Part shown: piece by piece, positions 11,550 to 62,138 of the stretch | Layout of the letters: every line of letters begins with the position of its first letter | Position numbering within the stretch: position 1 is the first letter of the stretch | DNA from: Octopus sinensis | Taxonomy: Eukaryota | NCBI RefSeq assembly: GCF_006345805.1 | Contig: NC_042997.1 | Location: forward strand, 39,804,001-39,868,000 | Length of the DNA stretch: 64,000 nucleotides | Reading direction: 5' to 3' | The notes under the pieces: generated by a model | The model's input: the letters and a program-made list of their open reading frames with translations, nothing else | Database searches by the model: none | What the model was told of the DNA's origin: nothing | Position numbers and translations under genes: made by a program

Positions 11550-11805
11550 TCTGCCTTTAACCCTCCAACGCAGAGTATAGGCCGCTTATGGTTGAATTCC
11601 ATGTCGCATAATTTTTCGCTTCTGTACTTATACTCTGCCATGAATGTCCCCCTTTCTCTAGTTCCTTTTGTGTTGACCTCTGCCACGAGTTCTTAGGTCT
11701 ACCTTTCTTTCTATATCCATCAGGTTTCCTCTGTAAAGCACTTTTCGCTATATTTGGTGTGTCTTTTCTAATTGTGCTACCAATCCACTTCCACTTTTTC
11801 TTAAA
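11550..11805 (-). mobile_element. RTE LINE 3' fragment
   Basis: Minus-strand translation KKKWKWIGSTIRKDTPNIAKSALQRKPDGYRKKGRPK matches the RTE motif RW.WIGH.LR...I...AL.W.P.G.R..GRP. Confidence 0.75.
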
Positions 11806-13215
11806 TGAAGAAATTTTTCCAAACCGACCTCTTCGATCTTCTGTGAAGTGATCTTTGCAGTGTGGGGCCGCGCATTGTCCTGATGAAACATCACTCGTTT
11901 TTGACTCACTAAAGCGGCTCTTTTTCCCTTCAAAGCTTGGTTCAAACGCTCTAATTGCTGACAGTAGACTTGAGCATTGATTGTTGCATTAGGTGGTAAC
12001 AATTCAAAGTGAATTACTCCTTTGCAATCACACCAGATAGAAAGAAGAACCTTTTTCCCATGAAGTTCCCTTCTCGGTTGTGGTTGAACATTTTCCCTTT
12101 TACCAAGCCACTGTTTACGACGTTTAACATTTCGATAGAAAATCCATTTTTCGTCACAAGTCTATCGAAAAAGGGTGAAATGAGTTTGCGAGAATGGAGA
12201 AAAGAGCAGATGTCAACTCAGGATTTGCAGTTGCTTTCGGACAATACATGAGGCACCTATTTTCCAAGTTTAGGAATCTTTTCACGTTGTTGAAGATGAC
12301 GATGAACTGTTGTATGGTTTGAAGTAAGCTTTATTGCCAATTCTTCAACTGATAATGACGGATTTTCTTCAAGTAATGCCTCAAGGAGCTTATCATCAAG
12401 CTCAACAGGACATCCTATTCGATCTTCAACTTCAATTTTGCAAACGATCTCCTGCAAGTTCTTTCATTCAAGCACTTTCCCATAAACTGAGTGTATGTTT
12501 CGAGTCACTTCGGCTGCAGAGTTACCTTTATTGTACTCTTAAAGAATTATATGTACCTTAAATGCTCCTTGGAGACTTCCATGTTGAAAGGGTTTTAATC
12601 AAAGCAATTTTAGGGTGTCCACGAAGTCTGGGTACATGGAATAAAATCATAACGTAAACAAATAAATATAAGAAATAATAATTTTCCTTTTTTACTTTTG
12701 GTTAAATCAAATAAAAAAAATACGTTACTTTTCTAAATTTATTTGTTATTTTTCCTACAGATGATCGAATGATGGATCTGTCTAAAGAAGAAAGAATCGA
12801 GTTAGTATTATTAAGTGGACGAGAGGTATGGTCTTATCGCAAAATTCCTGAAGAATTTAATCTTTGACACCCTTATAGGTAACCTATTTTTTTTACTGCC
12901 GTCGGGAAATTGATCAAGAAATTTAAAGAAACAGGCAGTTATGCATTGAAAAATGATGGAAATCACTTTGAAAATATTATTTAACATTATAATTAAATAA
13001 AATTGGTTTGTTTTAAAAGTATGTGTTAACGCCCATGTACGCAGACTTTGTGGACACCCTCTATTATTTTGTAAAACAATATTGAATTAGTTTAAACGTA
13101 CATAAATGCATAAAAATAATTTTCAATAGAATTAGACATTTGAAAATACTGTTAAATTTCATTCAAATCTAAAAAAAAAGGTAAAATTGGACAAAACTGA
13201 TTGGATGACTCGATA
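11806..13215 (-). mobile_element. Decayed mariner transposon
   Basis: LLPPNATINAQVYCQQLERL...VMFHQDNARPH (mariner catalytic domain) plus an HTH segment (LLEENPSLSVEELAIKL...TVHRHL). Frameshifted and interrupted by 12612-13061. Confidence 0.85.
12612..13061 (+). mobile_element. Internally deleted Tc1/mariner element nested in the mariner
   Basis: TIRs agggtgtccacgaagtctgggtacatgg / ccatgtacgcagactttgtggacaccct. N-terminal HTH (MDLSKEERIELVL...KLIKKFKETGS) is joined directly to the C-terminal CIENDGNHFENII. Confidence 0.8.
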
Positions 13216-16419: not shown

Positions 16420-16620
16420 AAATATTAGTTTCAGATTTTGACGCAAGGTTAGCAATTTCAAGGGAAGGCCTAAGTTGATTTCTTTGACCCCAGTGTTCAA
16501 CTAGTATTTAGTTTATTGACCTTGAAATGATGCTAGGCAAAGTCGACCTCGGCAAAATTTGAACTCAGAAAATGCTGCTAAGTATTTTCCCCGGTGTGCT
16601 AATGATTCTGTCCGCTTGCT
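16420..16620 (-). mobile_element. SINE family C (diverged)
   Basis: ggcaaagtcgacctcggc...tttgaactcagaa is the reverse complement of the B-box region. Confidence 0.7.
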
Positions 16621-16639
16621 GCCTTCTTTTCAGCATTTT

Positions 16640-17046
16640 AGCTCTTTTGTTACTCTTTTACTTGTTTCAGTCATTTGACTGCGACCATGCTGAAGCACCG
16701 CCTTTAATCGAGCAACTCGACCCCGGGACTTATTCTTTTGTAAGCCCAGTACTTATTCTATCGGTCTCTTTTGCCGAACCGCTAAGTGACGGGGACGTAA
16801 ACACACCAGCATCGGTTGTCAAGCAATGCTAGGGGGACAAACACGGACACACAAACAAACACACATACATATATATATACATATATACGACACGCTTCTT
16901 TCAGTTTCCGTCTACCAAATCCACCCACAAGGCATTGGTCGGCGCAGGGCTATAGCAGAAGACACTTGCCCAAGATGCCACGCAGTGGGACTGAACCCAG
17001 AACCATGTGGTTGGTAAACAAGCTACATACCACACAGCCACTCCTT
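16640..17046 (-). mobile_element. SINE family B
   Basis: Reverse complement of family B. Confidence 0.9.
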
Positions 17047-17549
17047 GAGATTCTGTGTTTCTTTCAATTAATTTTAAATATAACATAGAATAGAGGAAAT
17101 AAACTTAGTTATCATTAAATTAATGTTAGGAACATAAATTGCAACTAAGTTTTGGTGGGAGATTTTAATTCAGAACTTTTGAAAACAAGGCATTTGTACT
17201 ACAGAGCCAGGGGCGGTTTCATGTGAGTTGGTATCAAAAGGGTTAATGTTGAAATATCCATAGGCTGAAGAGTTTCACTACTTTAGATAACAAAGGATTT
17301 GTTGATATCTAAATATATTAGCTCCAATTCTAAGTATTTAATTTACTGAAAATTTGAGAAATAGAAACATTTATAAGGAGTTTGATAGCAATTTTTTCAT
17401 GTGATATTATAATTTTATCCAAGCAAAAGCACTTGTGAATTCTTTAGTGAACAGTTTCAGAAAAGGTGAAAAGGAAAAACAAAACTAAATAAGTATGTGT
17501 AATGGGTAAAAATAAGATATTTCAAAGAAACAAAAATATTAAAACAAAA

Positions 17550-18499: not shown

Positions 18500-19117
18500 T
18501 TAATGTCACTTAATGCTGAATGTTCTAGTCAACTTCACAGTAAATAAGTATCACATAATGATATAATAATATAATTAGTTGGTCTCAGAAGGGTGTGAAC
18601 AATTAAACTGCTGTTTTATTTGCATATATAGTTTGACTTCTTTTTTTTGGTGTGGACTGAAGACTGATACAGCTTGCTGGGGACTTGTAAAGATACACTG
18701 TATGATGATAAAATCTTCACTAATGCCCTAATAGTACAATGTGCTGTGAAACTTTCTGAGATTTAAACAGACAAACTAATATATAAAACATCAAAATGAA
18801 AAGAAAAGTACATTATTTATATCCAAACTACAGTGGAGAAGGTTAGCCACTGGATTTGGTTAAAAAGAGACAATGAGCAATGGTTAGAAGAATATTGAGC
18901 TTTATTTGATAACCAGCTGATCTAGCAAGCGGGGCCTCATATCAGTGAGGGGTGGAGCCGGTGTGCAGTGATGCCGCCCAGAGGTAGGCCCCAAAACAGC
19001 TCACATTCTCTCCTGATGACGGAATTTTTGACTGGTAGCACTTGCATGTGCAAGTTGTTTGCAAGACATCAGTCACCTGCATGTTTTTTATTCATTTGTG
19101 TTTTCTATATAAAACAT

Positions 19118-19420
19118 GTGGAGGCGCAATGGCCCAGTGGTTAGGGCAGCGGACTCGCGGTCGTAGGATCGCGGTTTCAATTCCCAGACCGGGCGTTGTG
19201 AGTGTTTATTGAGCAAAAACACCTAAAAGCTCCACAATGCTTCGGCAGGGGGTGGTGATCCCTGCTGTACTCTTTCACCACCCTTTCTCCCACTCTTTCT
19301 TCTGTTGGCCTGCTCACTTAGCCAGCGGGGTGGCGTCATTCAAAGGCTAAAACAATGCGAACGCATTGTGACCAGCGATGTGTAACAACATCTGATGGTC
19401 TGGTCGGTCACGTGATGGTG
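19118..19420 (+). mobile_element. tRNA-derived SINE, family D, tail type 2
   Basis: Same ~180-bp head as 17834 but a different 3' half. TSD atataaaacat at 19107-19117 and 19421-19431. Confidence 0.9.
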
Positions 19421-20339
19421 ATATAAAACATAAACAGACAGAGTGTTTATATATACCCTTTTCACAAGGAGTTATTGAACAATAAGTTTCTTTTCTGGTG
19501 GGTTTTATGTGTCGTGTATCAATATTTGGGTCCAAGTGTCTATGAAATTATTCATGCTCATAGATTTTATACACAAGTCATTGGATGGTGACAGCATGTC
19601 CTTTAAAAATTTTAAAGACAGACATTTATGCCTTTGATACTTTGAAATAAATGATTTGCTAGAAATAAGTTAGAAATTTAATGGTTTTCTTCTGAGAATT
19701 CAACAACATTATGCACCTATTCAAGAAGAAAGAATGAAACAACATGTGGAGACTGCCATCTCTGCCATTGAAAAACATGGTTATTCTTTGCTAGCAGCAT
19801 TCTTTGCAAGGATATCCTAAACCATGTTATCTAAAAATCCTGTTTATTCTATTTATATAAATTGCTTTTAGGAAGGGGAATTAGCAATTAAATCAGTCCT
19901 CTTCTTTACCTAAAAAAAAAAAAAAATGTTTCCCAGAAACATAACTTGAATTTCTATCTGGTGTTTGATTACTGGATTAGAACAACTGGTTTAGTAAACA
20001 GAAGAATTTGTTCTATAAAAGTTTGAGTTTCCAGCTGCAATAATAAATTTTTTTTCTGTTGTCTAATACCAAGCACTATATTTTAAAAGTCTAAATGAGG
20101 AGAAATGTGAAAATTGTTTCATGGACACCTTGCATCCTGTAATTGATATCATATGTTCTTTTCAAGGAGAATAATATAATACATTATTTTAGAATAATAC
20201 AACATAATATATCATATTATAATAATATAAGATAATATGACTTGTCCATGGCCAAAACACTTGTCTATCAATAATTAAAGCAAGGTACTACGAGGCTATT
20301 GTTGTGTTTGAGTTTTCTTATATCACTCATAATGGCTCC

Positions 20340-20560
20340 TTGCTCTTGAGGACTTTGGTGAAAGTAATGCAATTACATATGATTGTGTCTGGCATGAGAA
20401 CTTCCAAGATAAGTTAAGCACCTATTGTCAATATCTTTTTCTCATTTCCTGAATCAAAAGCTTTTTGATGCACTTCACCATTACAGTAGCCTTCACCATT
20501 TATTCTGGTGTATCCCAAGGCTCGGTAATGTTTCATACACTCTTCCTTCTATATATTGTT
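20340..20560 (+). mobile_element. Ancient LINE RT remnant
   Basis: Frameshifted motifs resembling (F)DCVWHE and SGVSQGSVMFHTLFLLYI. Confidence 0.55.
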
Positions 20561-20571
20561 TCTTTTCACAA

Positions 20572-20897
20572 CATCATCATCATCATCATCATCATCGTTT
20601 AACGTCCATTCTCCATGCTAGCATGGGTTGGATGGTTCGACTGGGGATCTGGGAAGCCAGAAGGCTGCACCAGGCTCCGGTCTTATCTGGCAGAGTTTCT
20701 ACAGCTGGATGCCCTTCCTAACGCCAACCACTCCATGAGTGTAGTGGGTGCTTCTAAAGTGCCACTGACACGAAGGCCAGTCTGGCGGTAGTGGCAATGG
20801 CCACACTCGAAAATGGTGTTTTTTATGTGCCACCTGCACAGGAGTCAGTCCAGCAGCATTGGCAACAACCTCGCTCGAATGTTTTGTTCACGTGCCT
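20572..20897 (-). mobile_element. RTE LINE 3' UTR fragment
   Basis: (CAT)n plus the family sequence. Confidence 0.85.
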
Positions 20898-21081
20898 TTT
20901 ACTTATCCATAATGATAACTGTGAGTGAAGTGTGCTATTGCATGGTAGTAAAACAGGTACCAAATGCAGGTGATGTGTGAAAGCTGGAAAGAAATTGAAT
21001 CGGTATATCGTATTGGATGTATATTGTCAGCATGTGTAAATGATGAAGCAGGGGTGTGCTAAATGGAAAAGTGAGCATTAA

Positions 21082-21302
21082 CCCTTTAGTGTTCAGATTA
21101 CTCTGTTAAATGTAAAACTTTTTCACTCAAATTGTTTTGAATTAATCATACATTATCTCATAGCTTTGAGGTTTCAATGCTGTGATTGTCTATTTTTAGA
21201 ATGTCAATGTAGGTTAGGTGTAAGAGGCTGGATATGGTCAGTTTGAATATAAAACATGTAGAATATATTGGGCCAGATATGGCCGGTTTAAACGCTAAAG
21301 GG
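21082..21302. mobile_element. TTAA-flanked MITE (piggyBac-like)
   Basis: TTAA|CCCTTTAG...CTAAAGGG|TTAA. Homologs at 14698-14887 and ~2060-2285. Confidence 0.85.
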
Positions 21303-22209
21303 TTAAAGAAATAGAGAGAAGAATGCACTAGTACAAGCTTATGATGTATATGAAGGATGACTGTTAGATGAGGAAGGTTCAAGTGGATTGAGCAGAAGGA
21401 ACCTGCTTGTGTGAAAATCTGAAGAAAATGTGGGAAGAAGTGTTGAAGATTGACCGCATGATATGGTACCTTATGAAAGAGATGACAAGCCATGAGATGC
21501 TGTACTGAAGTAGACTTGTCCATCCATGCCAGCATGAGAAAAATGGATGTAAAATTATGGGTTAGTGATGATGATGATGATGGTGATGATGGAGGTGGTA
21601 AAAGTGGTGGTGTTGGTGGCTACGGTGACAAATATAATGAACTGTTCTTAATTTTTTCTTTTTATATTGTCAGTGCACTTTTCAGAAATTTTTGTAGCCT
21701 GTTCGTTAACAAAAAATTTTAATGATTAAGATGTATTTCTCTCTAGGAGTGAATATACCATTTTTTGATTTCTTTCTTTTTTCTCTCTCTCTCTCTCTTG
21801 CCTTTCTTTTATGAAGTCAAAATTCCTTTTCATGATGGAGTTTAAATTACTATCCCAAACTGATATTAAACACAACAAAAGTTGTTGTTGAGAAGAATGC
21901 TTACTTTGGAATTGGGTTAACTCAGAACAAAGATAGTATTTATAGTTTTTAACTCTCACATCATCTGTTTTGAAGATTTGCATAAGCTTCAAATGCATCA
22001 CAATTTGGTTGAAAATAGCAAATAATCAAAAAAATGCTACGTAGTTACTTGATCTGATTGTCCTAGCAACAAAACCTTCCTCAACAAATTTCTTACCATT
22101 TTAAATTTTAAAATAGTACAGTGTGTTTTAAGTTCTAAATTTTACAATTTATCCTGTTATCATTTAGAAATTAGTTTCCATGAGAGAAGAAACAATATTC
22201 TATCAATAC

Positions 22210-22420
22210 TGATTTCATATTTTGGCACAATGCCAGCAATTTCAGGGCAGTGGGTAAGTTGATTACACCGGATCCAGTGATCACCTGGTACTTATTTTAT
22301 CAACCCCGAAGGATGAAAGGTAAAGTTGACCTAGGTGGAATTTAAATTGAGAATGTAAACATCGTTGAAATGCCTCTAAGCATTTTGCTGGCACGATAAT
22401 GGTTCTGACAGCTCGCCGCA
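22210..22420 (-). mobile_element. SINE family C (diverged)
   Basis: ctggtacttattttatcaaccccgaaggatgaaagg is the reversed Meta-like domain. Confidence 0.75.
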
Positions 22421-22946
22421 TTAATACTCAATCAATACTGATAGTATGAAAGCAGTTCAATATCAATGGAATGCAATGTTCCAGTTAATATCATGCTGGT
22501 ATGCTGCTTCTAAGAGATATTTCTTGTGAATATTAAAAGAAAAATTTTGACTTTAATTTCTTCAAATCTTATTTTGTAGATTTACATATTGCGTTGTAGC
22601 TTGATTTGTACCAGATTTATTGGGATGAGTTGTTGGTTAGTTTGTGGAAGCTGTGGGTAATGATTTAACAACACCAAGCATACAGTTAACATGATTTATG
22701 GTTGCTGTATTAGTCATATGAAGTTATTCATGAATTGCAAAGAGTCAACAAGATGAAAGAAATATGAGGTGCTGAAAACTTCCTGGTTTTGGGTAAGAGA
22801 AAATGACAGGTGGATCAGTTGATTATGATTTTATACAACATATTCCCCTTCTCAGATTCACACACTTATTGCAGCAGTCCTTCAGTTTTTCTAAGCCCTA
22901 TAAAAGAACTTGGAAGATTGGGCCTCCAAACAGGCCTTTTGCAATA

Positions 22947-23525
22947 CCATGAATCTTCGAGTATAGTCCACCCTTGAGTATAATACGCAGGGGATTTTGA
23001 GGGAGCTGTACCTCTAAAAAACCTAAACCTTGTGTATAATACGCAGCCCTTCTCTAACTTGAGTTGTGCGTAATTAAGCCAGCAGCACCTAGTCGAACAA
23101 ACACTTCTGCGCATGCGTAATACAATAATGGTGATGTTCTTAACTGTTATATGGGAATGTAAATATGTTTGCAAATTGTTTTTGTTACATGTTATTCTGT
23201 GTTCTGAATACTTTTATTTTAATAAATGTTGCTAACTGCAAGTTATAGATGATTCTTCATTGCTTTCAGGCTTAGCTTAAGATATTTTTGTGCCCGACAT
23301 CACAAAATGCATCTGAATAAACATTGCCAGACAGCAAATAGAGACTCAGACATTGCTTAGAAAATAATTTTCATTTTTAACCTCGTGTGCCCCAGCATGG
23401 CCACAGCTTGTGAGCTGAAACTAGATAAAATAAAATAAAATAAAAATAACAAATATTGTATGCACAAGGGATTTTGACCTTTAAATTTTGGGAAAAAAAT
23501 GTGGATTATACTTGAAGATTTATGA
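22947..23525. mobile_element. pogo/Tigger-like MITE
   Basis: TA|CCATGAATCTTCGAGTATAGTCCAC ... GTGGATTATACTTGAAGATTTATGA|TA inverted termini. Confidence 0.7.
23387..23447 (+). mobile_element. Extremely 5'-truncated CR1-like LINE tail
   Basis: Identical to 6090-6130 (gtgccccagcatggccacagcttgtgagctgaaactag) plus (TAAAA)n. Confidence 0.85.
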
Positions 23526-24185
23526 TACCCTTAAAGCCCAGGAACTTTCCATCCCCTCCATCATATAATGCAAGATACAAAGTTGCTGGATCTCAAAATT
23601 TACTACTGGGGCTGGATTAAACACAAAGAATACATATACATGTACCACTTTATGTCTTCTAACACAATCACATATCAATTAAGCATGATAGAACAATTAA
23701 GAAAGAGTGTGTATTTCATACTGCAACCAACAACACACTTAAGTTTGACACTGAAAAGTATTCTATAGGCCTTGTAGGAAAATATTCTAGGACCTTCCAG
23801 AATCCTCTTTCACTGGATGTCTAGCTTCTGGCTGGACAATAATTCAGTTGTGCACATGACTAAGCTGTTGCTATGTCATGGCTTGACATTCACTATGTGG
23901 CAACATGAGTTCATATCCTGCTATGCCCTAAAGTAATTCCTTTTCTACTTTAAATACAAGTTTTATTAAATACAGGACATCAACAATATGAAATCCTTAA
24001 CTAATATTTATGAAATAAAGTTAGAGTTAAAGTTAAAGTTAGACTAATGAAATATTAAAATAAGAAATATAGTTCCCTGTAGTAGAATTCAACAAAGTGC
24101 TTCCCTGATGATCCATTGCAGTCAGACATCCAAATGTTCTTGGAGCATCCAATACTGAATTCCAAATAACTGCAATGGTGTTATA

Positions 24186-24589
24186 TACTCTTTTACTTGT
24201 TTCAGTCATTTGACTGTGGCCATGCTGGAGCACCGCCTTTTAGTCGAGCAAATCGACCCCGGGACTTATTCTTTGTAAGCCCAGTACTTATTCTATCGGT
24301 CTCTTTTGCCGAACCGCTAAGTGACGGGGACGTAAACACACCAGCATCAGTTGTCAAGCAATGCTAGGGGGACAAACACAGACACACAAACACATACACA
24401 CACACACATATATATATACATATATACGACAGGCTTCTTTCAGTTTCCGTCTACCAAATCCACTCACAAGGCATTGGTTGGCCCGAGGCTATAGCAGAAG
24501 ACACTTGCCCAAGATGCCATGCAGTGGGACTGAACCCGGAACCATGTGGTTGGTTAGCAAGCTACTTACCACACAGCCACTCCTGCGCC
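24186..24589 (-). mobile_element. SINE family B
   Basis: Full-length reverse complement. Confidence 0.9.
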
Positions 24590-24755
24590 TATATGTAGGA
24601 ACTAATATAATCTATACTTGGGTTTATCTTAATTTTCCACTACATATGTTCTACATATCTTAACTAGTAACACCGCTAAGTACAGTGCTAGACTAAACAC
24701 TATACTGGAAGCATAATCTACGTGAAGCTTCAACTCATACAGTAATAGTTGTACA

Positions 24756-25184
24756 GAACTGTTAGCACGCTGGGCGAAATGCGTAATTAATATCATATGT
24801 CCTTTTCAAGGAGAATGATATAATATATTATTTTATAATAATACAATATAATATATCATATTATAATAATATAAGATAATATGACTTGTCCATGGCCAAA
24901 ACACTTGTCTATCAATAATTAACACTATAAGCAAGGTACTACAAGGCTATTGTTGTGTTTGAGTTTTCCTGAGGACTTAGTCCTTGACAGAAGTGGCAGA
25001 AACATTAACACGCCGGGTGAAATGCATAGCTGTATTTCGTCTGCCATTACGTTCTGAGTTCAAATTCCGCCGAGGTCGACTTTGCCTTTCATCCTTTCGG
25101 GGTCAATAAATTAAGTACTTAATCCCTTTGTCTGTCCTTGTTTGTCCCCTCTATGTTTAGCCCCTTGTGGGTAGTAAAGAAACA
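24756..25184 (+). mobile_element. Composite SINE C insertion containing a captured local segment
   Basis: TSD aatagttgtaca (24744-24755, 25185-25196) encloses a SINE head fragment, a copy of 20139-20357 and a near-complete SINE C. Confidence 0.85.
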
Positions 25185-25249
25185 AATAGTTGTACATCTA
25201 ACTATAGACACAAGAGATAAGAAATATATTTCAAACTAAACCTGTTCTG

Positions 25250-25710
25250 TTTATTAAAAATATATTTATTTATCATTGATATGCGACAATGTTTTTTAGG
25301 CAGAATAAATGGGATGTAATGTAGTGTTGTGTCTTTGCTGACATTATGATGCGTTAAGGTGAGGAACTGACAGGATAAAATAATAATGAAATTATTGTAT
25401 ACATTGCTCAGCTGCACCACAACTTGTCAAAAGTGCGTATAAAGCATATGCATTAATGTACAAATGTCTGGGAAGTGAACAGTGTATGAGTCAGATACAT
25501 GCTTACGTGTGTATGGAGGGGAGAAAATCAAGTGTAGTGTTGGCGAATCTCAGGAAGCATGGAAGTTTTGAAGGATGCAGTGCTCCGACAACTAACAACT
25601 GATGCCAGCAGTTTGTTCCATGCTTCAGCAACTCTTAGCGTGAAAAAATGTTTCCGAAAGTCATGGGAGCTGTGCTGTAAACATATCCACGGGTGTTAGA
25701 CGGGTGGAGT
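25250..25710 (-). mobile_element. CR1 LINE 3' fragment
   Basis: Minus-strand HDFRKHFFTLRVAEAWNKLLASVVSCRSTASFK matches the CR1 ORF2 end motif R..FF..RV...WN.LP..VV...S...FK. Confidence 0.85.
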
Positions 25711-25714
25711 TTGA

Positions 25715-25900
25715 ATAGTTAGCATGTCGGGTAAAATGCTTAGTGTGTCTTTATGTCCTGAGTTCAAATTCTACCAAGGTTGATTTTACCTTTCATCCTT
25801 TTGGGTCGATGAAATAAATAACAATAGAGTACTGTGGTGGATGTAATCAACTTACTCCTTCCCTGTAATTGCTGACCTTGAGCCAAAATTTGAAAGCAAT
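25715..25900 (+). mobile_element. SINE family C (diverged)
   Basis: B box and Meta-like domain. Confidence 0.7.
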
Positions 25901-26909
25901 ATTGTCATGCCTTTGCTAAGAGCATTAACAGCCTAACTGATCCGATATCACGTCTACGTAAAATCAAAAATAACTCATTGAACTGTGTTGACCAGGAGCT
26001 TTCAATTCAATATTTAAATATTTTTCTATGGTATTTAGGATGGCTACATACTTTAAAGCAGGAGTAAAAGCCAGTATTTTTTTTTTTTTTTGGTAAAATG
26101 TCACTTATATGCAGCCATTTAGTATGTTTTGAAGTAATTATTTCTGATATTTAGAGATACATTCTTTCAGAAAAGTCATATTTTGCATCAGAAACAAGTG
26201 TTAATGTTGGATACATTTTATTATTATCTCTGGTTGAGTAGATTTATGACTGAGAAATACTTGATTCATGGTTAAGTTTATCATGTTATATATAGAGGTT
26301 TATTTATTAGCTATTTGTCCATTTTTTCCTGATGTGTATTGATTCTGAGCTAATAAACCACAATTTATGTCAATAAAATTCCTGTTATATATATTGGTAT
26401 TTATATATATTGTTCTTTATCTATGTCTATTTGGTATAATAACCTATTTTTATTAATTTTTTTGTTTTTCATGTTATTACTTCTTTTATTCATTTGCCAC
26501 CTTGCCATTATTGTTCCTAATTATACTGGCATCTATATTGCTTCTGCCTGCCATTGTTTTTGACATTAGGCTTCCCCTGAGGACTATCAATATTAAAATA
26601 ACTGGGTTGATAGCTAAAGTTTTTATTTTTTATTTGAACTGTTTTCGTCTACAGATTATTTCTATGTTATTTATGATCGACGTAAATTATAAAAGTTCTA
26701 CTAACCTAATGTTAGACATAGCGCTTTGTGTTGTACTGTGCTTGTCCAAATACAGTCTCATACAACCCATTACATTAAAAAAGTTTTTTCAACTAAATGA
26801 CTAAGAAAAATGTAGAACTGTTATAGTACAAATGCTATGGACTGATATCTATATCATGGACAAAATGGAAGGGGGGAAGCATGTAGCAAGATGTATGTTT
26901 ATTAATTAA

Positions 26910-27410
26910 CTAGCAGTATCGCCCGGCGTTGCTCGGGTTTGTAAGGGAAATAACTATATAAGCATTTTTAGAGAGTTATAGCCAAAAAATAGCAAAAAAA
27001 ATGCATTAAGAATGGAAAAAAAAATTATGGTAAATTTTTTTTTAAATCGTTGACTCATCGTAGACATTTTTAGAGAGTTACTTCCCTTATATAATAGCGA
27101 AAAAATGCATTAAAATGGAAAAAAATTATGGTAAATTTTTTTTTAAATCGTTGACTCATCGTAGACATTTTAGAGAGTTACTTCCCTTATATAATAGCGA
27201 AAAAAATGCATTAAAATGGAAAAAAATGATGGTAAATTATTTTTAAAATCGTAGACTCATTGTAGACGCACGCTAATACCCAGAAGGGCTTGATATGAAT
27301 CACGACTATAAGATACCCACTTTTGGTTAAACTGCACCGCAAAATGTGGGAGTAGTTAGGAATCTAAATCGTAGGAGACAGACACACAACTTGACTTTTA
27401 TATATAAAGA
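26910..27410 (-). mobile_element. Non-autonomous Helitron-like element with an internal ~110-bp tandem triplication
   Basis: On the minus strand: A|TCTTTATATATAAAAG start, hairpin CCCGAGCAACGCCGGG and CTAG|T end. Homologous to 28196 and 57439. Confidence 0.8.
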
Positions 27411-41792: not shown

Positions 41793-42360
41793 AAGCGAGA
41801 TCGTTAGCATGCCGGACGAAATGTTTAGCGGTATTTCGGCTATCGTTACGTTCTGAGTTTAAATTCCGCCGAGGTCGATTTTGCCTTTCATCCTTTCGGG
41901 GTCGATAAATTAAGCACCAGTTACACATTGTGGTCGATGTTATCAACTTAATACCTATGTCTGTCCTTGTTTGTCCCCTCTATGTTTAGCCCCTTGTGGG
42001 TAATAAAGAAATAGGTATTTCATCTGCTGTTACGTTCTGAGTTCAAATTCCGCCGAGGTTGACTTTGCCTTTCATCCTTTTGGGGTTGATAATTTAAGTA
42101 CCAGTTACGCACTGGGGTCAACGTAATCGACTTAATCCGTTTGTCTGTCCCTGTTCGTTCCCTCTGTGTTTAGCCCCTTGTGGATAGTAAAGAAATAGGT
42201 ATTTCGTCTGTTTTCATGTTCTGAGTTCACATACCGCCGAGGTCGACTTTGCCTTTCATCCTTGAAAGGTCGATAAAATAAGTACCAGTTGAGCACTGAT
42301 ATGATGTAATCGATTTATCCCTTCCCTAATCTTGCTGGCCTTGTACCAAAAATTGAAACA
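41793..42360 (+). mobile_element. SINE family C trimer
   Basis: One head followed by three tandem bodies, each restarting at ggtatttc. Confidence 0.85.
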
Positions 42361-42739: not shown

Positions 42740-43200
42740 AATAACAAACTCGACGGAAAGCGGCACATGTCAATTTTTTTTTCTCTCTCTGTCGGCATGC
42801 AGATGTATAAACTTTCACTGCATGTAAGTACATTTCTTCTGTAAATCCGCTCTTCTTCGTAATTATATAACGATATTCGAAAGTAGATACCTCTTTAAGA
42901 AAGCAAAACATATGTGGAAGGCAAAAATGATCATTTAGATGTCACCTTGCAGTCGACTTTGTTTACGTTGTCAGTAATTGTTCTATAATTTCGCGCACCT
43001 GCCAATCGGCCGCATTTAAACCATTTTTGTATTTAACGAATTATAATATTCAGCTTTAATTTTTGAATAATCTTCCGATTTATACGAAAATAAAGAAGCA
43101 AGGAAACGAACGGGGGAATATATGTCTTGACCTTATCCAGTTCTCCTTCCGACTTAATTTATAAATTAATTTGTTTTAGCGCTTCGGGTTGGTTCGTTAA
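42740..43200 (+). promoter_or_regulatory. Probable COQ8 promoter / 5' UTR region
   Basis: Unique, locally CpG-enriched sequence directly upstream of the CDS. CCAAT at ~43002, candidate donor GTAAGT at 42824 and acceptor TTGTTTTAG ending at 43179. Confidence 0.45.
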
Positions 43201-43210
43201 ATCTCTCATT

Positions 43211-45163
43211 ATGTCTCGCCGTACTAACGAACTTATCGGTTTATTCAAAGGAATCGAAAGTATTAGTAAAGCCTTAATTGAAATAAATTCAGCAGAATTA
43301 AATACGTTCTGGCAAAATTCTAGTCTGAAATCTGCTTCCGAAAATGTTGCAAGTTGTGCTTCTCAAAGAGTTCAGAACTCTGATTTCAGTGGGTCTGATG
43401 CTCGCCAAAGAATATCTGATAGCTTTCAAATATTGTCACAACAGACATTTGGCATTTTTAATGCACTCTTTAACCAGAACGCCTTGAAAAAAGATATTGA
43501 AGTTGAAGAATCCGGGGAAGATGTTCTCTCAGATTTCCCAAATATTTATGATAGTGAAGCAGGAATCGATGACATAGTTATCCAGTCGGAGTTGTTTGCT
43601 CCGAAATCTACTGAAGAGAAGGAACGAATCCCCTCAGACGTAAAGGAAGAGAGAAACGCCAAAGAAGTACCAGCGGTAGAGATGGAAGTTCCTAAGAATT
43701 TATCTGATGAGCAACCTTCACCTGAATATGAGACTGTAACGGCTAAACAGGACCCTGAATTACTTTCACCAAAGTATAATCTGGAAACTAAACAAGAGCT
43801 GTCTAGTATATCAAAGGAAAGACGTGTACCTTCGTCCAGGATTGCAAGGTTAGTTAGTTACAGTGGTCTAGCTGCTGGCCTGGGTATTGGGGCCTTGGCA
43901 GAAGTCACACGACGAACACTAGGAAAGAAAACTCCGGATCAAGTTAGTAAAACAATACTAGGGCCTAGTCCTTTCATGACAGAAGCCAACATTGAACGAG
44001 TAGTAACCACTTTGTGTCGTGTGAGAGGAGCAGCTCTGAAGCTCGGGCAAATGATGAGCATACAAGACAATACTTTAATTAGTCCTGAACTCCAAAAAAT
44101 ATTTGAACGAGTTCGTATGAGTGCAGATTTCATGCCAAAATGGCAGATGATGAAGATATTAAATTCTGAACTTGGTTCAGATTGGCAAAACAAAGTGTTG
44201 TCTTTTGATGAGAAACCTTTTGCAGCAGCATCAATTGGCCAAGTTCATCAAGTTACACTTCTTGATGGAAAGATGGCAGCAATGAAAATTCAGTATCCTG
44301 GCGTTGCAGAGAGTATCGACAGTGATATAAATAACTTGATGGGAGTATTAAAAATATGGAACTTCATTCCCAAAGGTGCTTATCTTGATAACATGATAGT
44401 CGTTGCTAAAAAGGAGTTAACATGGGAAGTGGATTATGCCAGAGAAGCTGAATGTGGACAAAGGTTTTATGAACTTCTGAAAGACGATCCTGTTTTTGTA
44501 ATTCCAGAAGTATACAAAGAATTAAGTACATCACGAGTTTTAACCACAGGCTATATTGAAGGTGTTGCAATTGATAAATGCATTGAGATTGATCAAGAAA
44601 CAAGGAACTGGATTGGTAAACATTTACTCAGGCTAACTCTTAACGAATTATTTAATTTTAGATTTATGCAAACTGATCCTAATTGGGCAAACTTCTTTTT
44701 TATTCCTGAAACAAAACGAATTGGTTTGTTGGATTTTGGTGCTAGTCGCGAATTTAGTAAATCTTTTGTTGATAGATACATGAAAGTTATAAAATCTGCT
44801 GCTGACCAGAACCGTGATGGTATTCTCAGTGGTTCTCTTGAACTTGGATTTTTAACTGGATACGAAACCAAAGTAATGGAAGAAGCTCATATTGATGCTG
44901 TAATGATTTTGGGGGAAGCTTTCTCGTTTGACGGAGAATTTAATTTTGGTACCCAGAAAACTGCAAAACGCATTCAAAACCTTGTTCCTGTCATGATAGA
45001 ACACAGATTAACGCCACCTCCAGAGGAATCTTATTCTCTTCACAGAAAAATGTCCGGTGCTTTTCTTTTGTGCACAAAATTAAAAAGTAAAGTAAACTGC
45101 AAGGAACTTTTTGAGGATGTATGGAACAATTTCCAACTTGAAAACACAAACGTGAACCAATGA
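43211..45163 (+). CDS. COQ8: Atypical kinase COQ8A/B (ADCK3/ADCK4, UbiB/ABC1 family), mitochondrial; intronless CDS, 650 aa
   Basis: Uninterrupted ORF with ERRVPSSRIARL, KxGQ motif (GAALKLGQMMS), A-rich loop (FAAASIGQVH), MKIQYPGVAESIDSD, MQTDPNWANFF, LLDFGA and LTPPPEESYSLHRKMSG. First ATG (MSRRTNEL) at 43211. Confidence 0.95.
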   Translation: MSRRTNELIGLFKGIESISKALIEINSAELNTFWQNSSLKSASENVASCASQRVQNSDFSGSDARQRISDSFQILSQQTFGIFNALFNQNALKKDIEVEESGEDVLSDFPNIYDSEAGIDDIVIQSELFAPKSTEEKERIPSDVKEERNAKEVPAVEMEVPKNLSDEQPSPEYETVTAKQDPELLSPKYNLETKQELSSISKERRVPSSRIARLVSYSGLAAGLGIGALAEVTRRTLGKKTPDQVSKTILGPSPFMTEANIERVVTTLCRVRGAALKLGQMMSIQDNTLISPELQKIFERVRMSADFMPKWQMMKILNSELGSDWQNKVLSFDEKPFAAASIGQVHQVTLLDGKMAAMKIQYPGVAESIDSDINNLMGVLKIWNFIPKGAYLDNMIVVAKKELTWEVDYAREAECGQRFYELLKDDPVFVIPEVYKELSTSRVLTTGYIEGVAIDKCIEIDQETRNWIGKHLLRLTLNELFNFRFMQTDPNWANFFFIPETKRIGLLDFGASREFSKSFVDRYMKVIKSAADQNRDGILSGSLELGFLTGYETKVMEEAHIDAVMILGEAFSFDGEFNFGTQKTAKRIQNLVPVMIEHRLTPPPEESYSLHRKMSGAFLLCTKLKSKVNCKELFEDVWNNFQLENTNVNQ

Positions 45164-47864: not shown

Positions 47865-48620
47865 CCATATATAACACAACTTTATATAAAAAATGAATTA
47901 TGTTCTGTTGTATTTTAATACATCAGTAATTTTAGCATCATGTGTTAATAAAACAATTTTTATCATATTATCATTGTAATATATTTTTTTTAACATAATG
48001 GTGCAAATGGAGCAGGTGTTTTGAAATTTATTCCATTAAAAGAGATCTCCACAGGGAATTAGATTGCAAAGAGCTTATTTTTTCATTTACAAAGTGTTCT
48101 TTCTCTCTCAGAATCTTTATGCAAGTTGTTGCCGAAAATGTGTACTGGTTATGTCTGTCAGCAAGCCATCTTATATAGTTTGAAATGGAATTAAAATATT
48201 AGAATGTACTTTATTCACTTGGAAGTTCATATTTTGCTTTTATTTTCAAGGGTTAGAATATTAATTATTTATAATTAACATACTCAGTGTTGTCTTTGCC
48301 AGGTTGACTTTTAAGCATTTCATTTCTAGGACCTGCTTCTGTTTGAACATTTCCTCGGATTCTTTGACCATTTTCTTCTGATTCTCTTCTATTCATTCTG
48401 CTAGCCATGTTGTCTTGAATGAACAGAGGAATGTAGAGTAGAGAGAACTCTTGAGTTTTGCCAGGGATAAGGCAACCTCACATATTAAGTTTTAGAGTCA
48501 TGATAAATTTTACCCAGGACACTCTATAAGGTGATTGGTGAACAAAAGGGAAATGACATAAGGTAGGGATCACTCCATAATCTTGCCAGGGACAAAACTA
48601 TCTTAGTTTTGCTAGTGTCA

Positions 48621-50840
48621 TACGAATTGACAGTACCTTGGTAGATAAAGCAATTAAGAGTATGAAGACCGGGAAAGCCACTGGCCCATCAGGAATCACT
48701 GCAGAGATGCTCAAAATATCTGGCAGTGTCAGCTATAGTCTAGTCAACTTTATAGGTAACCAGGTGATACACGAAGGAATTATATCCAATGACTGGTGTA
48801 GCAGCTCCATAGTCAATTGCTACAAATGTAAAAGTGACGCTTTAGATACAAATAATTACAGAGGTATCAAGTTGTTGGATCAGGTAATGAAGCTCATGGA
48901 GAGGGTCATAGCCCAACTAATTTGGGAGAGAGTCAGTTTAGATGAGATGCAGTTTGGGTTTGTGCCAGGGAAAAGCACCACTGATGCTATATTTCTGGTA
49001 AGACAGCTACAGGAGAAATATCTAGCCAAAGATAAACCTCCGTACTTGGCTTTCGTTGACATGGAGAAAGCCTTTGACAGGGTCCCCCGATCCCTTATCT
49101 GGTGGTCAATGAGGAAACAAGGGATAGATGAATGGTTAGTGAGAGCTGTGCAAGCCATGTACAGAGATGCTGTCAGTAAGGTGAAAGTTGGCAACGAGTA
49201 CAGTGAAGAATTCCGGGTAGGGGTCCACCAAGGTTCAGTCCTCAGCCCCCTCCTATTTATCATAGTCCTCCAGGCAATAACAGAGGAATTCAAGACAGGA
49301 TGCCCCTGGGAGCTCCTCTGTGCTGACGACCTTGCTCTAATTGCTGAGTCACTATCAGAACTAGAGGAGAAGTTTCAGGTGTGGAAGCAAGGATTAGAAT
49401 CGAAGTCAACCTAGCTATATTCAAAGTTCTAATAAGTAAGAAGGCAGGCAAACCACAAATCCCTTCAGGTAGATAGCCCTGCTTGATCTGTAGAAAAGGT
49501 GTCAGTAGAAACTCCATAAGATGTACCCAGTGTAAGCTATGGACACATATGAGGTGCAGCAATATCAAAGGGAGGCTAACTGGGAAGATAGTTTTTGTAT
49601 GTGGCAAATGCTCAGATGCTATAAACACAGAAAATATGCAGAGAACAGCTTGTCACTTTCCAGGGGGAAAAAACTAGAAGTAGTCGATAGCTTCCATTAT
49701 CTAGGTGACCAAGTCAGTAGCGGGGGTAGCTGCTCTGAAAGTGTAGCTGCTAGAATAAGAATAGCCTGGGCAAAGTTCAGAGAGCTCTTACCTCTGCTGG
49801 TGACAAAGGGCCTCTTGCTCAGAGTAAAAGGTAGACTGTATGATGCATGTGTACAAATAGCCATGCTACATGGCAGTGAAACATGGGTTGTGACTGCTGA
49901 GGACATGTGTAAGCTCGCAAGGAATGACGCCAGTATACTTCGCTGGGTGTGTAATGTCAGTGTGCATACTCGACAGTGTAAGTACCTTGAGAGAAAAGTT
50001 TGACCTAAGAAGCATCAGATGTGGTGTGCAAGAGAGATGACTGCACTGGTATGGTCATGTAGCAAGAATGGATGAGGATAGCTGTGTGAAAAATATCACA
50101 CCCTAGTGGTTGAGGGAACCTGTGGAAGAGGCAGACCTAGGATGAGGTAGTGAATTACGACCTTCGAACATTAGGCCTCACTGAGGTAATGACTAGTGAC
50201 CGAGACCTTTGGAAATATGGTGTGTGTGAGAAGACCCGGCAAGCCAAGTGAGACCATAACCCGTGGCCTATGCCAGGGGTGTAACCAGTCCACTTATGTG
50301 TACCTTTCCTTCATTGGACACTAAACTCTGCTTGCGAAGACCTGTTGAGGTAAGTGAAATCGAAATCTAATTTGTTGACTGGTACCATGCTAGTGGAGCA
50401 CTAAGAGCACCATCCGAGTGTGATTGTTGCCCGAACAGCTGACTGGTTTCCGTGCCGGTGGCACGTAAAAAGCACCATTCGAGTGTGATCATTACCAGTG
50501 TCACCTTACTGGCGCTTGTGCTGGTGTCACATGAAAAAAACATTCGAGCGAGGTCGTTGCCAGTGCTGCTGGATTGGCTCCTGTGTAGGTGGAACGTTAA
50601 AAACACCATTTGAGCATTGCCGTTGCTAGTACTACCTGGCTGGCCCTCATGCCAGTGGCATGTAAAAGCACCCACTACACTCACGGAGTGGTTGGCGTTA
50701 GGAAGGGCATCCAGCTGTAGAAACTCTGCTAGATCAGATTGGAGCCTGGTGCAGCCATTTGGTTTACCAGTCCTCAGTCAAATCGTTCAACCCCTGCTAG
50801 CATGGAAAGCAGACGTTTAACAAATGATGATGATGATGAT
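48621..50840 (+). mobile_element. 5'-truncated, frameshifted RTE LINE (RT, PHD-like finger, 3' UTR, (GAT)n tail)
   Basis: RT motifs KATGPSGI, NYRGIKLL, QFGFVPGKSTTDAIF, FVDMEKAFDRV, GVHQGSVLSPLLF, LCADDL, FHYLGD and MLHGSETW. Stop at ~50251, followed by a modular UTR to (GAT)n. Confidence 0.92.
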
Positions 50841-61723: not shown

Positions 61724-62138
61724 TATTTCTTTATTGCCCACAAGGGGCTAAACATAGAGGGGATAAACAAGGACAGACAAAGGGATTAAGTCGATTACAT
61801 CGACCCCAGTGCATAACTGGTACTTAATTTATTGACCCCGAAAGGATGAAAGGCAAAGTTGACCTCAGTGGAATTTGAACTCAGAACGTAACGGCAGACG
61901 GAATACCTATTTCTTTACTACCCACAGGGGGCTAAACACAGAAGGGACAAACAAGGACAGACAAACAGATTAAGTCGATTACATCAACCCCGATGTGTGA
62001 CTGGTACTTAATTTATCAACCCCGAAAGGATGAAAGGCAAAGTCGACCTTGGCCGAATTTGAACTCAGAATGTAATGGCAGACGAAATATGGCTACGCAT
62101 TTCGCCCGGTGTGCTATCGTTTCTGCCAGCTTGCCAAG
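61724..62138 (-). mobile_element. SINE family C dimer inserted in an old family-B SINE
   Basis: Two tandem bodies. TSD gtctctcagtttct at 61710-61723 and 62139-62152. Confidence 0.85.

What the first reader, a model, noticed from the sequence alone, without database searches (positions are those of the whole stretch)
24744..25196. SINE insertion that captured ~190 bp from 4.6 kb upstream in the same locus
Seen: one 12-bp TSD (aatagttgtaca) encloses a SINE-C head fragment, then 24783-~24979, then a near-complete SINE C. The middle segment is a same-orientation copy of AT-rich sequence at 20139-~20357, with one internal deletion. Inference: the RT jumped from SINE RNA to a local template (nascent host RNA or nearby DNA) and back to SINE RNA during one insertion. 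This is cis-templated capture rather than ordinary 3' transduction.
Basis: partly seen in the sequence, partly recalled or inferred. Interest (0 to 1): 0.72.

Follow-up and report, generated by a model that had tools for sequence, protein, structure and literature searches.

The report
SINE insertion carrying nearby unique DNA
A short mobile element (SINE) sits in this animal genome fused to a 213-base copy of unique DNA from 4.6 kb upstream, likely because the copying enzyme hopped between templates while inserting it; such fusions are a known kind of accident, but a source this close by is unusual.

Summary
A perfect 12-bp target-site duplication (24744-24755, 25185-25196) encloses three parts. 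First is a 5'-truncated SINE head piece (consensus positions 16/18-47). Second is a same-strand copy of unique sequence. Third is a SINE that lacks only its first 12-14 bases.

The middle piece has two full-length copies in the 2.72-Gb genome: itself and 20139-20317. Contigs of a related organism (E) show the target site empty, and contigs of another (D) show it filled.

E's donor locus also carries the 27 bases 24969-24995. So the captured piece is one contiguous 213 bases, not a copy with an internal deletion. The window's donor later lost those bases and about 0.75 kb more.

Best reading (0.45): one retrotransposition event with two reverse-transcriptase template switches, as in the published tripartite chimeric retroelements. 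Main rival (0.30): a second hit inside a pre-existing SINE, because the head piece ends 2 bases from this family's self-targeted nick site.

Whether the local template was RNA or DNA is unresolved, and so is the direction of host transcription. This is a new variant of a known kind and of moderate interest. The scan had not noted it before on other DNA.

The parts
20139..20317 (+). Present-day remnant of the donor sequence (first 186 bases of the captured piece, minus 7 bp lost here)
   Evidence: 96.1% identity over 179 aligned bases to 24783-24968; the only other full-length copy in the genome.
20318..20353 (+). Sequence just right of the donor's later deletion: 28 unique bases, whose last 4 overlap the second copy of the 11-of-12 repeat tc[c/t]tgaggactt (20342-20353)
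   Evidence: the 28-mer is unique in the genome; in organism E, about 750 contig bases separate the homologues of 24995 and 20316. Repeat match by eye.
24744..24755 (+). 5' copy of the 12-bp target-site duplication
   Evidence: the organism E contig aligns to 24595-24755 and then continues with the right flank.
24754..24785 (+). SINE head piece, consensus positions 16/18 to 47. Its first 2 bases (ca) are shared with the duplication and its last 3 (gta) with the donor
   Evidence: profile 16-48, E 5.4e-6; consensus; an organism D contig spans 24633-24816 without gaps.
24783..24995 (+). Captured copy of local unique sequence (213 bases, 76% A+T over the first 186 bases, no CpG). The last 27 bases are preserved only here in this genome
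   Evidence: organism E donor contigs (2902 and 2678 bases) align to the whole of it.
24994..25184 (+). Main SINE, consensus positions 13/15 to 211, ending in the family tail next to the 3' duplication
   Evidence: related SINE families and a few copies of this one start at position ~13.
25185..25196 (+). 3' copy of the 12-bp target-site duplication
   Evidence: an organism A contig covers 25161-25403 with 1 other letter.

Best explanation
The whole 429-base insert between the two 12-bp repeats was likely made in a single SINE retrotransposition, in which the reverse transcriptase is inferred to have switched templates twice.

Inferred order of steps:
1. Reverse transcription was primed at the nicked target and copied a SINE RNA from its tail to its 5' end at consensus position ~13.
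2. It moved to a plus-sense template from about 4.6 kb upstream on the same strand and copied 213 bases. The joint has 0-3 shared bases (tg).
3. It moved to a second SINE RNA at position 47 (3 shared bases, gta) and copied it to within 3-5 bases of its 5' end.
4. The product was joined to the upstream target end (2 shared bases, ca), leaving the 12-bp duplication.

Shown directly: the parts, their order and orientation, the duplication, the empty site in organism E, the filled site in organism D, and that the middle piece has only two copies.

Inferred: that a reverse transcriptase made the joints, that it was one event, and what the local template was. That template would be either nascent RNA held at the locus or the upstream top strand laid bare by resection of the broken target. 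The second option has the right polarity for extending the cDNA, and it predicts a donor that is upstream and in the same orientation, which is what is seen.
For: - One perfect 12-bp duplication encloses everything. Its length lies inside the family's range of 8-18 bp, seen in 18 of 43 full-length copies.
- Empty site in organism E, in two runs. A 643-base contig aligns to 24595-24755 (11 other letters, no gaps). Its next 30 letters match window 25197-25226 at 24 of 30 in both runs (counted by eye).
- An organism D contig spans flank, duplication, head piece and 34 bases of the captured piece, 24633-24816, with no gaps.
- All three parts lie in the same orientation, as template switching predicts (PMC11702581 section 13; 10.1101/2025.02.02.635956, passages).
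- Each joint has 2-3 shared bases.
- Both SINE parts stop at or near position 13. Related SINE families, and a few copies of this one, begin there.
- The head piece and the main SINE differ at 7 of 32 bases, which fits two different SINE molecules.
- The main SINE carries both letters of one head type (a45 and t50) across position 49/50.
- The donor has no SINE beside it today (no hit between window 16624 and 22268).
- Precedent: a tripartite chimera with a 14-bp duplication and two in mouse with 15- and 16-bp duplications (PMC2104539; abstract and section 8 read).
Against: - The head piece ends at position 47, 2 bases from the site (49|50) where this family nicks its own copies. In 17-18 of 43 full-length copies the tail runs straight into a unit that starts at position 50/51, and in 6 of 13 in the contiguous 264 kb. 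Under a single event this is a coincidence.
- No allele or species with an intermediate state was looked at closely enough to exclude two steps. For organisms A and C the 5' joints were not seen.
- Known chimeras use abundant RNAs as templates. A template from 4.6 kb away is more typical of DNA-based template switching.
- Only one such case was found: 1 of 73 SINE-type hits in 264 kb has a unique local duplicate abutting its 5' end.
Confidence: 0.45

Rival explanations
1. Second hit on an older SINE. A SINE (positions 16-211) was already at this site with its 12-bp duplication. The family's endonuclease later nicked it at its own hot spot (49|50). The nicked SINE DNA primed on the matching inner part of a SINE RNA, or primed normally and two tandem bodies later collapsed into one. 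The cDNA ran to the RNA's 5' end, went on for 213 bases on the upstream template, and was sealed to the old head at position 47.
For: - The hot spot is real and heavily used (17-18 of 43; 6 of 13), in line with earlier notes of this scan.
- The head piece ends 2 bases from it.
- Only one unusual template jump is needed, because the joint to the head is then the ordinary sealing to the upstream DNA end.
- The head piece (gcgta type) differs in type from the main SINE's head (gcata type).
Against: - It needs an earlier insertion plus either priming inside the RNA or a later collapse.
- The main SINE has both letters of one head type on either side of 49|50, so t50 would have to be an independent CpG change.
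- No species with a plain SINE at the site was seen; organism E lacks everything.
- The subfamily test for a chimeric main SINE was inconclusive, because the variants are reticulate.
Confidence: 0.3
2. DNA-level repair with no reverse transcriptase in the second step. A plain SINE insertion later suffered a break near position 47. The break was repaired by microhomology-mediated template switching, which copied 213 bases from 4.6 kb upstream and then restarted at the SINE's beginning, duplicating positions ~16-47.
For: - Templates a few kb away and 2-3-base microhomologies are typical of such repair (PMC8421209, search-listing abstract only).
- Five of the 7 differences between the two head copies are CpG-type changes (read by eye), so a common origin is not excluded.
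Against: - The duplicated stretch would have to start, by chance, exactly at the SINE's 5' boundary.
- The main SINE has a consensus g at position 15 (24996), where the old copy's flank has a.
- The two head copies share no derived letter.
Confidence: 0.1
3. Read-through from the donor locus (5' transduction). A 5'-truncated SINE once lay directly after the 213 bases at the donor. A transcript that started upstream carried both and was retrotransposed. The donor-side SINE was then lost in the ~0.75-kb deletion.
For: - The window's donor has lost the sequence right of the captured piece, so what lay there at the time cannot be read in this genome.
- A SINE that lacks its first 12-14 bases may need an outside promoter.
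Against: - In one search, where the laid stretch continued into the SINE, the organism E donor contig stopped aligning at 24995.
- It needs three extra events and still needs a template switch for the head piece.
Confidence: 0.05
4. Assembly artefact: the joints do not exist in the animal.
For: The joint 24995/24996 is supported here only by the assembly itself. No listed contig was shown to cross it.
Against: An independent contig from another organism and study (D) crosses flank, duplication, head piece and captured piece. An organism A contig crosses the 3' end.
Confidence: 0.02

Closest known systems
Tripartite chimeric retroelements made by double template switching during LINE reverse transcription (Gogvadze et al. 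2007, PMC2104539; abstract and section 8 read)
   Same: Three retro-copied parts fused head to tail in one orientation. The 3' part carries the retroelement tail. The whole is flanked by one short target-site duplication (14 bp in the fungus, 15-16 bp in mouse).
   Different: There the parts are abundant RNAs (LINE, SINE, U6, WEIRD). Here the middle part is a unique sequence from 4.6 kb upstream of the insertion, both outer parts come from one SINE family, and no LINE part is present.
U6/L1 and other RNA/L1 chimeric insertions (bioRxiv 10.1101/2025.02.02.635956; passages read)
   Same: Same-orientation fusion at the 5' end of a retro-copy, at an endonuclease site and with a target-site duplication. 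Template switching or RNA ligation is proposed.
   Different: The partners are recurrent small RNAs or mRNAs from anywhere in the genome. No local donor is described in the passages I read.
Complex L1 insertions with local changes at the target in cultured human cells (PMC11702581; abstract passage and section 13 read)
   Same: [quoted passage not shown] These are ascribed to a template-switching reverse transcriptase and to processing of the broken ends.
   Different: Those are experimental, somatic L1 events. Here it is a fixed germline SINE event shared by at least two organisms. A donor 4.6 kb upstream is not described in what I read.
5' or 3' transduction by retroelements
   Same: Unique flanking DNA travels with a retroelement.
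   Different: Transduced DNA is contiguous with the source element. Today's donor has no SINE beside it, and the captured piece lies between two SINE parts.
Self-targeted SINE stacks of this genome (earlier notes e1-9583264 and e1-9556421; they cite Kojima 2015, PMC4494074, which I did not read)
   Same: Same SINE head region. The head piece ends 2 bases from the nick site that I found for this family.
   Different: Stacks have a tail followed by a unit from position 50/51. Here the tail is followed by the outer target-site duplication, and a foreign piece is present.

Membership tests
Chimeric retro-copy made by reverse-transcriptase template switching | Parts of different origin fused directly, all in one orientation | tested here: met
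   head piece, captured piece and SINE all lie on the + strand, with 0-3 shared bases at each joint.
Chimeric retro-copy made by reverse-transcriptase template switching | The whole chimera is flanked by one target-site duplication, with the retroelement tail at the 3' end | tested here: met
   12 of 12 bases identical at 24744-24755 and 25185-25196, with the tail ending at 25184; the family's duplications are 8-18 bp.
Chimeric retro-copy made by reverse-transcriptase template switching | The pre-insertion site lacks all parts | tested here: met
   organism E contigs from two runs go from 24755 straight into the right flank.
Chimeric retro-copy made by reverse-transcriptase template switching | All parts were inserted in a single event | tested here: inconclusive
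   Only empty (E) and full (D, own genome) states were seen. The hot-spot coincidence keeps a two-step origin open.
Chimeric retro-copy made by reverse-transcriptase template switching | Each part is a copy of an RNA | not testable with these tools
The captured piece has no splice junction or tail that would mark it as RNA.
Retroelement transduction (5' or 3') | The carried sequence is contiguous with a source element at the donor locus | tested here: not met
   no SINE hit between window 16624 and 22268; the organism E donor contig stops aligning at 24995, where the SINE begins. What lay there in this lineage before the deletion cannot be read.
Composite SINE subfamily (middle piece is part of a consensus) or nested transposon | The middle piece recurs in many copies | tested here: not met
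   2 full-length copies, with 41 other matches confined to the AT-rich bases 30-100; absent from 23 aligned SINE copies.
Self-targeted SINE stack | The tail of one unit is followed directly by a unit starting at consensus position 50/51 | tested here: not met
   the tail is followed by the 12-bp duplication. One search shows the pattern in 17-18 of 43 other copies.

The most novel reading that the evidence does not exclude
The captured piece was copied from DNA, not RNA. After the target broke, resection bared the upstream top strand for several kb. The growing SINE cDNA annealed there by a few bases, was extended for 213 bases, let go, and was sealed at the break. If so, SINE insertions leave a readable record of long-range resection at retrotransposition intermediates. 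Their captured pieces should then always come from the upstream side, on the same strand, within resection range.
Probability: 0.25. Interest if true: 0.6.

Novelty: new variant of a known kind. Interest (0 to 1): 0.45.

Why it matters
Chimeric retro-copies are the main natural evidence that LINE-type reverse transcriptases switch templates in vivo. The known cases use abundant RNAs, so they say little about what the enzyme can reach at the target.

Here the donor lies 4.6 kb upstream on the same strand. A random source would fall within 5 kb with a chance of about 4 in a million in a 2.7-Gb genome (my arithmetic). That points to a template held at the locus itself, either nascent RNA or resected flanking DNA. 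It also gives a simple prediction about donor side, strand and distance that a genome-wide survey of this very abundant SINE could test.

The copy is also a small fossil. It preserves 27 bases that the donor locus has since lost.

It is a single case, so on its own it adds an example rather than a rule.

Tried and rejected
- RNA evidence: no RNA holder was listed for 19900-25600.
- Host gene direction: Pfam on 28 of the 286 window ORFs that passed my length and complexity filter (the longest ones) found no exon near the donor. It found an ABC1 kinase ORF, a reverse-transcriptase piece, a helix-turn-helix domain (DUF4817), a mariner-type transposase piece and a sub-threshold CD20-like match.
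- tRNA and RNA-family scans: ARAGORN found 0 genes in the window. Rfam found 0 matches at E up to 1 in 19000-27000.
- Is the lost ~0.75 kb a high-copy transposon? Its two surviving edges, 28 and 27 bases, are each unique in the genome at up to 3 mismatches.
- Is the main SINE a chimera at position 49/50? No other copy among those aligned (48, 29; partly the same loci) combined its head type with its short body. But the head letters are CpG changes and the variants are reticulate, so the test is inconclusive.
- Partner LINE: one tail-only hit (profile 164-210) had no reverse-transcriptase ORF upstream. Not pursued.
- Other cases: orphan head pieces in about 400 kb were 6 hits at E up to 10, and only this one is followed by foreign sequence and then a SINE. 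Among 73 SINE-type hits in 264 kb, only this one has a unique local duplicate abutting its 5' end. The three other local hits are either part of a ~490-bp tandem duplication or lie 148 bases or more from the SINE.
- One search was swamped by repeats: 6050 joints and 9977 loose ends were not shown.
- The organism D contig of 293 bases that aligns to 24784-24995 has 62 unaligned bases before it. I could not tell whether it is D's donor, D's insert copy or a collapse of both.
- Idea considered and left as speculation: the captured piece begins with gt and has an ag at 24989-24990, so it could be a whole excised intron. No exon, RNA or splice evidence was obtained.
- Earlier-findings look-ups near this place, by sequence and by words, gave nothing.

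Full report
**What is in the sequence**

Window 24744-25196 holds a perfect 12-bp direct repeat (24744-24755 and 25185-25196). The bases just outside it differ on both sides. Between the repeats lie 429 bases in three parts, all on the + strand.

To place the parts I aligned 23 genomic copies of the SINE. I built a 211-position profile from them and ran it over 264 kb around the window.
- The profile finds a head piece at 24754-24786 (positions 16-48, E 5.4e-6).
- It finds a long copy at 24990-25183 (positions 9-210).
- By eye against the consensus, the head piece covers positions 16/18 to 47. Its first two bases can equally belong to the repeat. Its last three (gta) can equally belong to the next part.

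**The middle part**

24783-24968 matches 20139-20317 in the same orientation. There are 7 mismatches in 179 aligned bases (96.1%) and one 7-bp indel.

In the own genome (2.72 Gb, 13,516 contigs) a search with 24783-24979 gave 43 matches. Only the piece itself and the donor cover more than query bases 30-100. The other 41 lie in that AT-rich stretch. The tool warns that its counts are lower bounds. The middle piece is absent from the 23 aligned SINE copies. It is therefore neither a multicopy repeat nor part of a SINE consensus.

**Related organisms**

Sequencing runs of five coded organisms hold parts of the region. The first laying, over 19900-25600, was swamped by repeats. It still showed that a 2902-base contig of organism E carries the donor locus in this order:
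- window 19937-20126;
- a stretch that aligns to 24783-24995, that is, to the insert copy;
- about 750 further bases;
- window 20316-20559.

A second laying on 24595-24995 alone was clean. It gave four results.
1. In organism E, in two runs from different samples and studies, a 643-base contig aligns to 24595-24755 (11 other letters, no gaps). It then continues with letters that match the window's right flank 25197-25226 at 24 of 30 (counted by eye). A 643-base contig of the same run, taken to be the same one, had covered 23921-24183. So E lacks both the composite and the neighbouring element at 24184-24594. This is the empty site.
2. In organism D, a 186-base contig spans 24633-24816 without gaps. 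It crosses flank, repeat, head piece and the start of the captured piece.
3. E's donor contigs (2902 and 2678 bases) align to all of 24783-24995 with 12 other letters and 8 gap letters, 5 of them at 24815.
4. A 930-base contig of organism C aligns to 24783-24968 without gaps and runs on upstream unaligned. I read it as C's donor. It therefore carries the 7 bp that the window's donor lacks. In one search, C's donor continued as in the window (20288-20559).

An organism A contig covers 25161-25403, the 3' end.

**Corrected anatomy**

The captured piece is 213 contiguous bases (24783-24995), not a copy with an internal deletion.
- Its last 27 bases occur once in this genome, in the copy.
- The donor later lost them together with about 0.75 kb, measured in E.
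- The 28 bases right of that deletion are also unique.

The main SINE starts at consensus position 13-15. That is where related SINE families, and a few copies of this one, begin. Both SINE parts therefore end at or near what looks like an RNA 5' end.

**How it most likely arose**

Same-orientation parts, 2-3 shared bases at each joint, a retroelement tail at the 3' repeat and one target-site duplication are the marks of a chimeric retro-copy made by template switching.
- Tripartite cases with 14-16-bp duplications are published (PMC2104539; abstract and section 8 read).
- Same-orientation concatenation is ascribed to a template-switching reverse transcriptase in human L1 work (PMC11702581 section 13; 10.1101/2025.02.02.635956, passages).
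- The template-jump model for 5' joining is also favoured for a fish LINE (PMC2666801, passages).

I therefore favour one event with two switches: SINE RNA, then the local template, then a second SINE RNA (0.45).

**The main rival**

Earlier notes of this scan say that SINEs of this genome land in their own heads. I tested this for the present family.
- In 17-18 of 43 full-length copies the tail runs straight into a unit starting at position 50/51. In the unbiased 264 kb this holds for 6 of 13.
- Where duplications are visible (18 of 43; L005 and L013 are one locus fetched twice) they begin with [G/T][G/A]TAT. The SINE's own head matches this at position 50.

The head piece of the composite ends at position 47, 2 bases from that nick site. 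A second hit on an older SINE at this site would explain that, and it would need only one unusual jump (0.30). Against it:
- the main SINE carries both letters of one head type on either side of the nick site;
- no intermediate state was seen.

My subfamily test for a chimeric main SINE was inconclusive.

**Other rivals**
- DNA-only repair that duplicated the head: 0.10.
- Read-through from a donor-side SINE that has since been deleted: 0.05.
- Assembly artefact: 0.02. The joint at 24995/24996 rests on the assembly alone.

**What the local template was**

This is open. No RNA run could be laid. No exon was found near the donor among the 28 ORFs scanned.

The geometry fits a DNA template. Resection of the broken target would bare the upstream top strand. 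That strand has the right polarity for extending the cDNA, and copying it would give an upstream, same-orientation donor. This is my inference from one case.

**Novelty and score**

The kind is known. The twist is a unique donor 4.6 kb away, caught between two parts of one SINE family, in an animal genome that earlier notes call an octopus (unchecked).

My searches and the parts of papers I read did not show such a case. Supplements were not opened, and subscription papers on L1 integration are not in the library.

I found no second case in 264 kb or among orphan head pieces in about 400 kb. Interest is 0.45.

Noticed in passing
window 41800-42296, 61724-62136; 264-kb region around the window (loci L046-L065): Full-length copies of this SINE are often followed head to tail by one to five units that start at consensus position 50/51 (period about 182-184 bp). 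The family's target-site duplications start with [G/T][G/A]TAT, which the SINE's own head matches at position 50.
   Followed up: partly
window 43094-45160 (+): An open 689-residue frame without introns carries a full ABC1 atypical-kinase domain (Pfam PF03109, E 1.8e-66). It could be a single-exon gene or a retro-copy.
   Followed up: no
window 24184-24594: A ~410-bp repeat element just left of the finding is absent from organism E's orthologous contig. It has very many copies in all four laid runs. A related copy lies near 16563-17100.
   Followed up: partly
window 19937-20126: This stretch just upstream of the donor is much better conserved between the window and organism E (3 other letters and 1 gap in 190) than its surroundings (about 89-95%). 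It has no open frame and could be a conserved non-coding element or an untranslated exon.
   Followed up: no
window 24608-24755: The left flank of the insertion belongs to a low-copy repeat: 6-7 further contigs listed per run at 80-88% identity. Other copies carry about 14 extra bases after 24712. Five contigs per organism E run cross the target point uninterrupted.
   Followed up: no
window 48581-49411 (+), 11751-12161 (-): A reverse-transcriptase fragment (RVT_1, E 6e-24) and a mariner-type transposase fragment (Transposase_1, E 2.3e-26). I did not test either as the SINE's partner.
   Followed up: no
L056-L058 (264-kb coordinates 23086-25001): A local tandem duplication of about 490 bp that includes a SINE-like unit starting at consensus position 11.
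   Followed up: no
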